Shown here: piece by piece, positions 9,319 through 44,389 of the stretch
Position numbering within the stretch: the stretch's first letter is position 1
How the letters are laid out: the number at the start of each line of letters is the position of its first letter
Origin: Octopus vulgaris
Taxonomy: Eukaryota
Reading direction: 5' to 3'
Assembly: GCA_951406725.2 (NCBI GenBank)
Contig: OX597819.1
Location: forward strand, 105,400,001 to 105,464,000
DNA: 64,000 nt
Made by a program: the position numbers and the translations under genes
Notes under the pieces: generated by a model
Database searches by the model: none
What the model was told of the DNA's origin: nothing
What the model saw: only the letters and a program-made list of their open reading frames with translations

Positions 9319-9515
9319 TTAACGCCGCATGCGTCCACCACAGCTTGTCTTGGCCGACCATTCGCAGGACTTACTGTGTGTAGAGAAGGCAGTGCCAGCT
9401 GGACATCGGTGTCTTGGTCCTAAACGTCCATAGTGGCAGTAATAGAAATGGTAACAACTGGATGGATCAGGAACAACGTCGTCTTTCACATCTTGACACA
9501 TCGGGTCTTCGTCAG
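9319..9515 (-). CDS. Gene A exon 3 (terminal): chitin-binding type-2 domain 3
   Basis: Acceptor ttttctaatttaaag|, phase 1. Reads PDEDPMCQDVKDDVVPDPSSCYHFYYCHYGRLGPRHRCPAGTAFSTHSKSCEWSAKTSCGGRMRR* (C-x13-C-x5-C-x10-C-x12-C-x7-C). The three exons join in frame to 681 nt (226 aa + stop). Confidence 0.9.
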
Positions 9516-12239
9516 CTTTAAATTAGAAAAGAAATTGCAATCAATCAAAATTATTTTAATCGAATTAACAATAAGCTAACAGATTTAATGATCACTGTCA
9601 AGTCGTAGACAGCTCTTAAGGATCTTAAAGTATTCTGTATCTCCAGAATTTTAGATTTTAAAAAAGTCCCTGAGATGGGTTTCCATAACCATCTCAAGGA
9701 GGATTTGAATTCAACATAATAAGTTATATAAATGCTTGGTGACTTTGTACTGTGAACCCGTTGATTATAGCTCTCTGCTTATAATTAGACAGGCTGAATT
9801 AGAGAATGTCAAGTACTTGGTCAGTGACCCAGAAAATTACACATGTTGGCCATGAATACAGAGCAGCCTTCGTAGCAGGATGCGGAATATCTTCACATCT
9901 TCAGTCAAGATGGATGTTGATTCTCTGTCTACTCCAGCTAGCTGTGAGTTTGTCGAAAAACCACACATTTTGAATGACCTCCGAGTGTCACAGAATATCA
10001 AACTCTGAAATGAAGATCTATCTTAAGTTAATCCCAATTCTAACGCCTCCTAACACTAACCTAAACTCATGCAACTGTAATAAATTCAATCATAGCCTTC
10101 TTGGGGACTAAAGACTGCAGCAACTAAAGGTCACCGCCTTTATAAATTCAGATAGAAAAGATATAGTTCTATGATTATCTCTAACGTAATACTTCTTAAT
10201 TAATCAGTGGATTAATTATCTAACAAGAAATATTCTTTTATAGAAAGGACATGTAAAATGTACTTAAAGTTTAGGAAAAGACGATTTTATTTTATCCGGT
10301 GAGACTCATAGACCAATGAGGGAGCCTCTACGTGGTCGCTTGATTTACTAGAAATAGCAGCTAAATTTCCATAAAAAGATCACATTCCGCCGTCTAAAAA
10401 TAGACTGGATGACCAAGCTTGTACAAATTTGAACACAATTTTGCTAAGCCAGAAATGTCCCGAGACTAAACAACTACTTGTATTTTTCATATGTCGTAGA
10501 TCCTCTGAGTATCTGCACCTGGAATGGTACTCTCCAAGGAGCAGGTGTAAGCAAGGTATTTTGCGAAGACCAACAGTTTCCCATGCATGTCTCCACCTCT
10601 CCACGTCACTGATGTTGTTTAAAGGAGAGGTAAGGTGACACAACTTCGGGCCAGTATCGTCGCAGGCGTTAGAATCAGAAGGCGGAGAACTGTATCAAAC
10701 ACTGCCCTTCAGTGTTTGATATGCTCTCTGCCGCTCTGAATTCAAATGCCATCGAGGCGAACTTTTCCTTTCATCCCTCTGGGGTCAATAAAATAAAGTA
10801 CCAGTCTTGTACTGGGGTCAATGATATCGATTAACAACCTCCCTAAATTTCTTGGCCTTGTTCCTAAATCATCAAACACGACAATTTCAATCCTTATAGT
10901 GTCCCACCTCGTATGAGAAACACTGCATGCGACACCAAAATTATTCCACTAGTTCACTGCTCTGGGTTAGTACGTTTTGTGGCTGTGTGGTAAGAAGCTT
11001 GCTTTCCAACCACATGGCTCCGGGTTCAGTCCATCTGTGTGTGTGTGTGTGTGTGTGTGTGTGTGTGATTGTCTTCCACCACCGGTGTTAGTGTGTTTAC
11101 ATCCCCATAACTTAGTGATTCGGTAAAAAATTGCCGATAAAATATACCAGGCTTAAACAAGTACTGAGGTTGGTTCGATCTACGAAAAGTTCTTGAAGGC
11201 AGTGCCCCAACATGACCGCAGTCTAATGACTGAAACAAATAAAAGATAAATTTTGAAAGGCAGAGCTGATCTCAGCGGGATTTGAACTAAGGAAATCAGA
11301 ACAAATATTGTAAGTTATTAACTGAAACTGTAACGACTCTCTTAATTAGCTACCTGGGCCTAAGCAACAGTCTCAAAATTTTATTAAATTAATTAATTAA
11401 TAAAATGTATGTAATGTGTTGTTAATATGATTATAGTTTGTCGGATTATCATTAATTTCACCTTCTAGGATAAAGCGTTCCTGTTAACTTCCCCATCTAT
11501 AAAGGTGATTAATCGGTAGAATCAGTAGGGTAACGCCAAAAATATATTTTGGGTGGAGGAGGGGGTTAACAGAAATCGATAGAACAGCGGGAGAAAAGGC
11601 TTTCAGTTTTGAGTTCAAATCCCGCCGAGTTTGAGATTTACATTTCGCCCTCTCGCGGGGTCGATAAAATAAGTACTTGTTGTTGCAGTTGGTGCCTAAT
11701 CCCAAGTCATCTCTGAATGAATAAATCTCTGATCAAAGGCCTTCCTTCCCCGTTATTTTAGATGTAGTATACGTATCTAGGACTATATCATCTAATGTAT
11801 CCTTCCTAATTTTTAAAGGCGGGTAGGGTGTAATTGAGAGAAATTTAGTTAAATTTTGGCATAAGGCCAGCAAGTTTTGAGGAGGGGATAAGTCAATTAC
11901 ATTGACACAAGTGCTCAACTGGTACTTATTTTATCGGCCCCGAAACGATAAAAGGCAAATTAGAAAGAAATTTGACTGCAATCTTTAGCGGGTCAAGCGA
12001 CTGAGTACTGGGGTCGATCAACTCCTTCACTCCGATTTGTAGACATGGGCTTTAGCCAAAAATCTATATTTGCACTATGCTTCGATGGATTTGATCTCTG
12101 ATCGAAACATAAATGCTAAAACATATTTTATCCCTGAAGATAAGGTGCTGCATAGAACGGAAGTACAATAATTGTAAGAAATCTACGCGGGAACAACTTA
12201 GCTCCAATAACTTTTCTTCATTAATATTTGTTTGTTTTT

Positions 12240-12905
12240 AAATGCGGCGATCTGGCAGAAACGTTAGCATGCAGGGCGAAATGCTTAGAGGTACTTCGTC
12301 TGCCGCTACGTTCTGAGTTCAAATTCCGCCGAGGTCGACTTTGCCTTTCATCTTTTCGGGGTCGATAAATAAAGTACCAGTTACGCACTGGTGTCGATGT
12401 AATCGACTTAATCCCTTTGTCTGTCCTTGTTTGTTCCCTCTATGTTTAGCCCCTTGTGGGCAATAAAGAAATAAGAAACGTTAGCACGCAGGAGAAATGC
12501 TTAGAGGTACTTCGTCTGTCTTTACTTTCTGAGTTCAAATTCCGCCGAGGTCGACTTTACCTTTCATCCTTTCTGGGTCGATAAATTAAGTGCCAGTTGT
12601 GTACTGGGGTCGATCTAATCGACTGCCCCACCCCAAAAAAAAAAAACATTTCGGTCTTTGTGCCTAGAGTAGAAAAGAATATTTGTCTTTAAGGCGATGA
12701 GTTGGAAAACCGTTAGCACGCCGGAGAAAATGCTGAACAGCATTCCGTCCGTCTGTAAGTTCTGAGTTCAAATTTCGCTGAGATTGACTTTGCCTTTCAC
12801 CCTTTCAGGCTCGATAAAATAAGTACCAGTTGAGCACTGGGGTCAGTGTAATCGATTTACCCCTGCCCCGGAGTTGCTGGTTTTGTGCCAAAATTTGAAA
12901 TCAAT
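12240..12905 (+). mobile_element. Cluster of three MetaSINE-like SINE units in intron 2 of gene A
   Basis: Repeated head and core motifs at about 12243, 12475 and 12692. Confidence 0.85.
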
Positions 12906-13713
12906 ATTTGCTTATCTTTTAAATTTTGACCCATGGCATAAGCACAGCCGCGTGGTTATGAAGCTCGCCTTGTATTCACGTGGTTTCGATACCCAGGGTA
13001 AGTGTTTCTTACGAGACTTGCCCTAGGTGTTTTGTACTATAGTTGCGGGTGGTCAACGCTTTGTGAGTGGATTTGAAAGACAGGAACTGTGCGGCAGCTC
13101 GTTGTATGCACGCACACACATGCGTGCGCGCACATACGCATATGGGGATATGTGTATGTCTTGTGTTTGCGTTTGTTACCCCAATGCTCGACAATTGATA
13201 CTGGTTGATTTGTTTGTTTGTCTCGAAACCCTTCAAGGCAGAGCTCCAGTTTGACATATAACCGAAAGAAGTCAAATGAATGAATCAATATGTGAATAAA
13301 TAAATAAATAATAAAAGAATAATTAAATTATCTTGGCAGCTCTTTTCCTTTTGGGAAGACGAAACACCCAAACCCAAATGAATAGGGTAATGTGCGAAAC
13401 AACCAACCAATGAATTAACTACGGATCAGCGTGTTAAATAGAGACAACGCCTTTTCGATTTTACCTGCTGGTACCATGAGAAAAGTTTCTGTTCTGTAAG
13501 AGGCAAGATTCTCCGTTAACCATTTACTCGATTTGAAGAGAAATCGTGACAGTTATGTTGTGTTAAAACGTCAGTGAAGTTATTGAGAAGAAACCCTCCT
13601 AAATCACCTGGATTTAGAAGTCGTTTAAATAAGTATCTGTAAAATACTCGGTTATTTCAATGTAGTTGAAGTTATTAAACAGAGATCAAAATGAAGTGGA
13701 ACTGAAGACTTAC

Positions 13714-13920
13714 GGATAAGAATGGTGTCTGGGATCCTTCTATTACCGCAATCATCGGCAACAGCGTGGGCAAATTGACAACTGTCATTCTTTGGGTAGT
13801 ATAGAGTACCGTCTCCACAGCGCTGAAATGCCATCAAAGTGCCATTGGTGCAGGAAATAAATCTGGAGCAGTCATCGGGGTCAACGTTGTTACCATGTTT
13901 CTTTACACAGCGTGGGTCGT
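13714..13920 (-). CDS. Gene A exon 2: chitin-binding type-2 domain 2
   Basis: Acceptor tgttcttcag| and donor C|gtaagt. 207 nt, phase 1-1, open frame DDPRCVKKHGNNVDPDDCSRFISCTNGTLMAFQRCGDGTLYYPKNDSCQFAHAVADDCGNRRIPDTILI (C-x12-C-x5-C-x10-C-x12-C-x9-C). Confidence 0.9.
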
Positions 13921-43505: not shown

Positions 43506-43574
43506 TAATAATAATAATAATAATAATAATAATAATAATAATAATAATAATAATAATAATAATAATAATAATAA

Positions 43575-43965
43575 TGGAGTCTTAATTGAGAAAGAAAGTA
43601 AACTATGCTGAATCATAGATATAGCATGCCTACAATATTACAACAAGTTATGCGGTAAGAAAGAAAGAAAAGTCGATAGGTACGACAGGTTAGCTTGGGA
43701 GGTTAAGCAGTTGTAGTCGATGAAAAAGTTGGTAGTAGTAGCAATAATTGTCGAAGTCCTGGGAACAGTGAGTAAAAATGTCGAGAAGTACATGGAAGAA
43801 ATAGGGGCTGCAATAAGGGTGGAGCACTTGCAGAAAACAGCTCTGCTTGGAACCGCTCGAATACTCCGGAAGGTGCTCGAAAAATAAGAAGCGTTACCTT
43901 AGTTCACTGGTAGTGAACAGCTGATGCCGTAGTACATCTCCAGCTTTAGAAGCTGTGCAAAGGCA
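43575..43965 (+). mobile_element. 5'-truncated Dong/R4-like LINE 3' end (distinct family)
   Basis: IIDIAC...KVDRYDRLAWEVKQL...LGTVSKNVEKY...VEHLQKTALLGTARILRKVLE; related copy at 60625-60895 (-). Confidence 0.8.
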
Positions 43966-44106
43966 ATGATGATGATGATGATGATGATGATAATAATAAT
44001 AATAATAATAATAATAATAATAATAATAATAATAATAATAATAATAATAATAATAATAATCATGGGGACGATAGGAAAAATTGATGTTTAAAGAATGTTG
44101 ACTTAC

Positions 44107-44389
44107 CGGAAATACCACCAAGACTAGATGTTTTGTTACAGTCGTCTTTTTCCTGATTCTTTCTGACGCATACATTGTAAGTAATGGAGAACACTAAACC
44201 AGATGAACATGCCATTTTACCCATGGATCTACCCAGAACACAAATGGAGTATACACTGCAATTTTTCGCGTCCCTTACGAAGGTCGCCATACTGCTAGCA
44301 TGTTCACGTTTGCATATATTACTCTCATCTGTGTAGCCCAATACTACGATTGCAGCAATGATAGCCACTATGCTTAGGTACTTGCACAT
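44107..44389 (-). CDS. Gene B exon 1: signal peptide + chitin-binding type-2 domain 1
   Basis: ATG at 44389 (the ORF-track start at 44446 is TTG). Leader MCKYLSIVAIIAAIVVLGYT, then C-x17-C-x5-C-x10-C-x12-C-x9-C. Donor TCC G|gtaagt. 283 nt, phase 1. Shares VRD..C.V...C and DDCN with gene A exon 1. Confidence 0.9.

What the first reader, a model, noticed from the sequence alone, without database searches (positions are those of the whole stretch)
9319..44389. Tandem pair of small secreted multi-ChtBD2 chitin-binding protein genes hidden in repeat DNA
Seen: five short Cys-rich exons with canonical splice sites join into two same-strand genes, signal peptide + 3 domains (226 aa) and signal peptide + 2 domains (163 aa). 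They align domain by domain: D1 shares VRD..C.V...C and DDCN; D2 shares DD..C, GNN..P..C and IPD. Known: the six-Cys spacing defines ChtBD2/peritrophin-A, and signal peptide + 3 ChtBD2 with no catalytic or mucin region is the arthropod Obstructor/CPAP3 layout. Inference: this is a diverged mollusc family of chitin-matrix scaffolds (beak, radula, sucker or gut cuticle) or chitin-sensing immune proteins, and may be part of a longer cluster.
Basis: partly seen in the sequence, partly recalled or inferred. Interest (0 to 1): 0.75.

Follow-up and report, generated by a model that had tools for sequence, protein, structure and literature searches.

The report
Mollusc mouthpart chitin-scaffold gene pair
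Two real octopus genes encode small proteins built of chitin-binding-type modules and related to squid beak proteins; one has close counterparts in snails and a chiton but none named in clams, so it likely helps build the chitin mouthparts (radula or beak).

Summary
Both genes lie on the minus strand. Gene B (3 exons, 226 aa, three ChtBD2 domains) is real: exon 1 is spliced to exon 2 in contigs of 4 of 4 runs laid, and it is NCBI-annotated in two Octopus species. Gene A probably has a sixth, 17-nt exon (34364-34348) and is 158 aa, not 163. The genes are not a diverged oddity. Gene B has 54-64% identical orthologs in 23 named gastropods and a chiton, and none named from bivalves or non-molluscs. 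Gene A is one of 18 faster-evolving two-domain paralogs in two clusters on the same chromosome; several are named 'binding beak 2'. Domains 1 and 2 of A, B and the octopus ortholog of squid beak protein DgCBP-3 form two supported clades. Best reading: non-catalytic chitin-scaffold proteins of the foregut hard parts, of the beak-CBP kind, from a family dating to early molluscs. Tissue and chitin binding are inferred, not shown. Orthology to arthropod Obstructor is unsupported but not rejected.

The parts
44107..44389 (-). Gene A exon 1: ATG, hydrophobic leader, ChtBD2 domain 1 (D1); phase-1 donor
   Evidence: 97% to O. sinensis LOC115213031
36268..36444 (-). Gene A exon 2: ChtBD2 domain 2; phase-1 donor at 36267.
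34348..34364 (-).
   Evidence: 155/158 identical to the O. sinensis record
21601..21877 (-). Gene B exon 1: ATG, hydrophobic leader, divergent ChtBD2 domain 1
   Evidence: donor at 21601 joined to exon 2 in 4 of 4 runs
13714..13920 (-). Gene B exon 2: ChtBD2 domain 2, the best-conserved domain (75% to a gastropod)
9319..9515 (-). Gene B exon 3: ChtBD2 domain 3 and stop
   Evidence: matches the O. sinensis record LOC118763859

Best explanation
Genes A and B encode small proteins of two and three ChtBD2 modules that are predicted to be secreted and likely act as non-catalytic scaffolds, binding and bridging chitin fibrils in the foregut hard parts (radula, beak, buccal cuticle) before hardening. 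Gene B is a slow-evolving member of a family with a D1-D2 core that dates at least to the ancestor of chitons, gastropods and cephalopods. The same family holds the squid beak chitin-binding protein DgCBP-3. Gene A belongs to a two-domain branch amplified in tandem in octopods (18 genes), which likely tunes the beak or other cuticle matrix. Shown: gene structure, one splice, domains, orthology, clusters. Inferred: secretion, chitin binding, tissue.
For: Orthologs of B at 54-64% identity in 23 named gastropod species and 1 chiton (two copies), plus 2 Octopus species; 0 of these 26 named species is a bivalve or a non-mollusc. A D1 profile separates orthologs (105 bits or more) from all other proteins held (31 or less). 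The ortholog tree follows the three classes. With outgroups, D1 (97/86) and D2 (97/96) of A, B, the two-domain paralogs and XP_029637511 form two clades. XP_029637511 clusters with the DgCBP-3 domain 7BWE, is named as highly similar to it in bioRxiv 2020.01.08.899344, and maps at the edge of the second cluster. Paralogs carry the name 'binding beak 2'. Circumstantial expression, sequences not seen: stem-mollusc radula-specific snail genes are mostly chitin-binding, 4 with only PF01607 (PMC5995198); a limpet 'OBSTE' gene has FPKM 0.4 in muscle and 1189 in stage I radula (PMC9263180); a top-20 chiton radula transcript hits Lottia at 6e-76, near the 1e-79 to 1e-81 I compute for the chiton and Lottia orthologs. 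An aromatic residue two after Cys5 is kept in 29 of 29 ortholog domains.
Against: No tissue data for either gene: no listed run is on record as RNA. None of the published radula transcripts could be tied to gene B by sequence, and the 'obstructor-E-like' name is shared by other ChtBD2 genes. The limpet paper's text says chitin-binding candidates other than PIF did not differ across radula stages. ChtBD2 does not guarantee chitin binding: EHEP and Der p 23 lack it, and EHEP is B's best PDB match. The DgCBP-3 domain shown to bind chitin is its third domain, which does not group with any domain of A or B. Gene A lacks the aromatic residue after Cys5 in both domains, as do 16 of 16 scored two-domain D2s. 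A 'chitin binding beak protein' gene is a qPCR target in a squid stomach/intestine study, so the family may not be beak-only. Bivalve absence rests on a word-based search and on members read for 13 of 25 clusters; unnamed records remain. The DgCBP-1, -2 and -4 sequences were never seen.
Confidence: 0.65

Rival explanations
1. Gut-lumen proteins: peritrophic-membrane or stomach-cuticle components, or EHEP-like polyphenol scavengers that need not bind chitin.
For: Best PDB match is Aplysia EHEP, three peritrophin-A domains, 229 aa; EHEP lacks chitin binding; a beak-CBP-named gene is studied in squid stomach and intestine.
Against: EHEP spacing and sequence differ and D1 does not align. Aplysia has a separate 61%-identical ortholog of B. 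Bivalves have a gut and (recalled) a chitinous gastric shield, yet gave no named ortholog.
Confidence: 0.14
2. Matrix proteins of other octopus chitin structures (sucker cuticle, hatchling Koelliker bristles, stylets), most plausibly for the two-domain expansion.
For: Named hits of the two-domain branch are all octopods (Octopus, Argonauta). Sucker cuticle and Koelliker organs are octopod chitin structures (recalled).
Against: Cannot explain conservation of B in snails and chiton; paralogs are named after beak protein 2.
Confidence: 0.1
3. Gene B is a true ortholog of arthropod Obstructor/CPAP3 and works as a general cuticle organiser.
For: Same layout of leader plus three domains (definition in PMC5799365); the top Atlas clusters by features are arthropod obstructor-E-like, 0.92; AU tests do not reject the grouping (p 0.18 and 0.31).
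Against: An Obstructor-like protein (P0122, label recalled) matches only D2-D3 at 31% and its domains fall outside the D1 and D2 clades. No named arthropod among the orthologs.
Confidence: 0.07
4. Chitin-sensing immune or antimicrobial proteins, like tachycitin.
For: Tandem expansion and faster change of the two-domain genes (A is 82% identical to O. bimaculoides against 98% for B); fold shared with tachycitin.
Against: The strong conservation and class-tracking tree of B do not look like an immune arms race (inference); no immune link in any call.
Confidence: 0.04

Closest known systems
Squid beak chitin-binding proteins DgCBP-1 to -4 (Tan et al. 2015, not held; known from passages of PMC9999432, PMC9716703 and bioRxiv 2020.01.08.899344)
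   Same: Small, non-catalytic tandem chitin-binding-domain proteins. D1 and D2 of the octopus DgCBP-3 ortholog group with those of A and B; paralogs of A are named 'binding beak 2'.
   Different: Neither A nor B is the DgCBP-3 ortholog (another gene at C6:122.04 Mb is; B is 26% identical to it). B has orthologs in beakless snails and a chiton. No beak proteomics seen for A or B.
Arthropod Obstructor/CPAP3
   Same: Signal peptide plus three ChtBD2 domains and no catalytic domain (gene B).
   Different: Gene A has two domains; different Cys spacing in D1 and D2; no domain-by-domain grouping in the tree, though not rejected.
Aplysia kurodai EHEP (PDB 8IN3)
   Same: Molluscan secreted protein of about 229 aa with three peritrophin-A domains; best PDB hit by sequence and by fold.
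   Different: Polyphenol binder of digestive fluid without chitin binding; spacing 15-5-9-12; only D2-D3 align; not an ortholog.
Radula-expressed ChtBD2 transcripts of Tylomelania, Patella vulgata and Cryptochiton
   Same: ChtBD2-only, radula-enriched, some of stem-mollusc origin.
   Different: Reported only as unnamed transcripts; their identity with gene B's orthologs could not be checked.

Membership tests
ChtBD2 / CBM14 (PF01607) | Six-cysteine peritrophin-A spacing | tested here: met
   All five domains; B 14-5-11-12-10, 12-5-10-12-9, 13-5-10-12-7; A 17-5-10-12-9, 13-5-10-12-7
ChtBD2 / CBM14 (PF01607) | Pfam score over the curated cut-off | tested here: met
   4 of 5 exons pass; B exon 1 is 16.4 against 22.1 bits; both whole database proteins pass
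ChtBD2 / CBM14 (PF01607) | CBM14 fold | tested here: met
   Model of B, mean pLDDT 77, pTM 0.49, matches EHEP and the CHIT1 CBM14 (rmsd 1.5-2.1 over about 50 columns)
ChtBD2 / CBM14 (PF01607) | Binds chitin | not testable with these tools
   Some members do not bind
Cephalopod beak CBPs (DgCBP) | Domains group with those of a DgCBP ortholog | tested here: met
   D1 clade 97/86 and D2 clade 97/96 include XP_029637511; 60 columns only, and its D1 is a long branch
Cephalopod beak CBPs (DgCBP) | One-to-one ortholog of DgCBP-3 | tested here: not met
   The gene at C6:122.04 Mb is (82% to the DgCBP-3 domain)
Cephalopod beak CBPs (DgCBP) | Ortholog of DgCBP-1, -2 or -4 | not testable with these tools
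   Sequences not returned by any search; only the name 'binding beak 2' on paralogs
Cephalopod beak CBPs (DgCBP) | Present in beak or made by beccublasts | not testable with these tools
   No tissue labels on the runs
Obstructor / CPAP3 | Signal peptide plus three chitin-binding domains | tested here: met
   Gene B only; leader judged by hydropathy, not SignalP. Gene A has two domains and fails.
Obstructor / CPAP3 | Orthology to arthropod Obstructors | tested here: inconclusive
   Separate in the tree, AU p 0.31 and 0.18; one outgroup whose Obstructor label is recalled
EHEP | Spacing CX15CX5CX9CX12CX5-9C in three domains, with full-length similarity | tested here: not met
   Spacing differs; only residues 101-223 align

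The most novel reading that the evidence does not exclude
Gene B is a conserved core matrix protein of the radula, inherited from the mollusc ancestor and lost with the radula in bivalves, and the cephalopod beak chitin-binding proteins, including an 18-gene octopod array, arose from this same family: the beak reused the radula's chitin scaffold toolkit.
Probability: 0.35. Interest if true: 0.72.

Novelty: new member of a known kind. Interest (0 to 1): 0.5.

Why it matters
The non-chitin part of the radula matrix was described as unexplored (PMC5995198), and the beak proteome is known from one squid species (PMC9716703). Gene B gives a sequence-defined candidate shared by chiton, snails and octopus that can be knocked down in Lymnaea or Biomphalaria. 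Octopus lacks the His-rich beak proteins of squid (PMC9068888), so the two-domain array is a candidate for what its beak uses instead. If the link holds, it ties the origin of the beak to the radula at the level of matrix genes.

Tried and rejected
Laying four runs on 9260-13960 gave zero depth on exons B2 and B3 and was swamped by repeat-derived contigs. Two of those runs (X1, X10) have contigs that carry B2 letters, so I treat the blank as a tool gap; it is unexplained, and the B2-B3 junction was not seen directly. No RNA holder on record was listed. A single gene A1-A2-B2-B3 was considered because of the donor at 36267, and dropped once that donor was matched to exon A3 and to the database models. 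An all-against-all search for shared third exons in cluster 2 showed, in the part printed, only repeat-like matches. Motif searches of supplements found no gene-B sequence. Accession searches of papers: 0 papers for six Octopus accessions; for gastropod accessions the 30 listed of 1,576 were chance matches to the bare number. Tan et al. 2015 is not held. The Atlas could not confirm the label of P0122. The Loligo single-cell paper has no mention of beak or chitin. No complex prediction was run.
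Full report
Observation. A six-frame scan and exon mapping find the five Cys-rich exons on the minus strand: A1 44389-44107, A2 36444-36236, B1 21877-21601, B2 13920-13714, B3 9515-9319. All introns are GT-AG and phase 1, and the joins give 163 and 226 aa. Both N-termini are hydrophobic and nothing later is (hydropathy only). PF01607 passes the cut-off in 4 of 5 exons; B1 is below it. A spacing pattern chosen from these domains matches 5 times in the window and never in 30 shuffles. 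The window is G000:C6:105400001-105464000 of a 2.8-Gb genome; records named Octopus vulgaris share that contig length.

Transcription. Twenty of 24 listed runs, from 7 studies, hold exon B1; none is on record as RNA. In 4 of 4 runs laid, a contig stops at 21601 and continues with the letters of window 13891-13920, the start of B2 (10 letters in one run, 30 shown in three). The X1 and X6 contigs run 715 and 781 letters past that point, which fits B2 + B3 + a 3' UTR ending near AATAAA signals at +318 and +351 (inference). Against this, one search showed no depth on B2 or B3 in four runs, two of them the same; I could not explain it.

Corrections. Gene B equals O. sinensis LOC118763859 (224/226) and O. 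bimaculoides LOC106869806 (222/226). Gene A equals LOC115213031 and LOC106869807, both 158 aa. Their C-terminus is encoded by a 17-nt exon at 34364-34348 after a donor at 36267; most minus-strand paralogs in the second cluster have a donor at the same place. The 163-aa form would need read-through and is untested.

Gene B is old and conserved. Searches returned orthologs at 54-64% identity in 23 named gastropod species and the chiton Liolophura (two copies). Of 26 named species none is a bivalve or non-mollusc; members were read for 13 of the 25 clusters, and many records are unnamed. A D1 profile scores orthologs at 105 bits or more and all other proteins held at 31 or less. Among the best 150 of 422 hits in 1.84 billion representatives, the single-stretch full-length matches were the chiton ortholog, a snail paralog at 39% and an Argonauta protein at 31%; orthologs over 50% identity are collapsed in that library, so it cannot show bivalve absence alone. 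A quick tree of 40 rows follows the three classes, and unnamed rows nest in or beside them; one fragment is sister to the chitons and one joins the snail paralog.

Gene A is one of many. Scanning 264 kb around the window and 400 kb at C6:121.68-122.08 Mb gave 41 domain exons: B, A, two more two-domain genes at 105.49-105.51 Mb, 15 D1/D2 exon pairs at 121.73-122.02 Mb (one very divergent; pairing inferred from order and strand) and two exons at 122.04 Mb. That makes 18 two-domain genes. Their named relatives are all octopod, several called 'binding beak 2'; that search scored only its best 7,995 candidates, so squid absence is not shown. A is 82% identical to its O. bimaculoides ortholog where B is 98%.

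Link to beak proteins. The 122.04 Mb gene is XP_029637511 (94-97% over two exons; its first exon was not found in the stretches fetched) and is 82% identical to the solved DgCBP-3 domain. In a 59-row, 60-column domain tree with outgroups, all D1s (14 rows, 97/86) and all D2s (13 rows, 97/96) of B, A, the paralogs, the snail paralog and the DgCBP-3 ortholog form clades (one D2 was missed by the extraction pattern; an earlier tree without outgroups gave D1 95/97). The DgCBP-3 domain with binding data is its D3 and groups with neither gene. An Obstructor-like and an EHEP-like outgroup (labels are mine, from recall and from the alignment) fall outside, but AU tests do not reject Obstructor grouping.

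Function. The model of B shows three beta-rich modules matching CBM14 structures, best EHEP. In the squid model, CBP-chitin complexes form the beak scaffold, a model the review calls unvalidated. Radula data are suggestive only: stem-mollusc radula-specific genes are mostly chitin-binding; a limpet OBSTE-named gene is about 3,000-fold higher in stage I radula than muscle; a chiton radula transcript has a Lottia hit of the expected strength. None was linked by sequence. Bivalves lost the whole buccal apparatus (recalled), so the profile points to the foregut, not uniquely to the radula. The aromatic residue after Cys5, aligned to a CHIT1 tryptophan (its role in binding is recalled), is kept in all B orthologs and lost in gene A, so A may bind differently or act as a partner.

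Papers. Passages read: PMC6351634, PMC5995198, PMC9263180, PMC13425148, PMC9999432, PMC9716703, PMC9068888, PMC10619976, PMC5799365, PMC5999225, PMC11931252, PMC9839350 and bioRxiv 2020.01.08.899344. Supplements: rows of PMC6351634 and PMC9263180 (file 5 cut when stored, file 1 unreadable), parts 2-3 of PMC5995198, a motif search of PMC13425148. The bioRxiv supplement listing DgCBP domains is closed and Tan et al. 2015 is not held; both bear on DgCBP orthology. Searches listed no paper that, by title or abstract start, describes this ortholog group or these clusters; subscription journals are largely missing.

Verdict. Real, annotated but uncharacterised genes of a known kind. The value lies in gene B's taxonomic profile, its link to the beak proteins and the octopod array. 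Interest 0.5.

Noticed in passing
G000:C6:121,729,581-122,020,223 (L033-L063): Array of 15 two-domain paralogs, including five near-identical recent copies at 121.79-121.88 Mb, with the DgCBP-3 ortholog just beyond it at 122.04 Mb.
   Followed up: partly
G000:C6:105,489,471-105,512,371 (L013-L015): Two more two-domain genes, convergent, 45-68 kb past gene A; one matches O. bimaculoides LOC106869808, numbered consecutively with B (806) and A (807).
   Followed up: partly
P0194 and P0205 against G000:C6:121.76-121.88 Mb: These two 'binding beak 2' records look like faulty gene models: P0194 appears stitched from parts of neighbouring paralogs and P0205 breaks off early in D2.
   Followed up: no
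P0036, P0173, P0043, P0123: Land snails carry a second three-domain paralog of gene B (36-39% identity); its best octopus matches are gene B's own exons, so octopus seems to lack a separate copy.
   Followed up: partly
P0068 (Argonauta): A further three-domain family member with no close counterpart found in G000 (best 44%).
   Followed up: partly
window 20200-20871 (+): Broken mariner-type transposase (Mos1 HTH, PF17906) in the B1-B2 intron.
   Followed up: no
window 57862-58566 (-) and 62464-63093 (+); 40519-40662 (-) and 63622-63789 (+): Near-identical dispersed copies in opposite orientation, probably mobile-element fragments.
   Followed up: no
G000 C9:59.85-60.08 Mb, C5:90.17-90.27 Mb, C18:0.72-0.74 Mb, C30:9.85-9.87 Mb, C8:60.58-60.60 Mb: Other dense groups of PF01607 exons among the 150 of 298 candidates scored.
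   Followed up: no
PMC5995198 supplementary table 3: Two radula-specific stem-mollusc snail genes with EGF and Delta/Serrate domains; possibly related to the chitin-anchored Delta-like genes noted in earlier scan findings for this genome.
   Followed up: no
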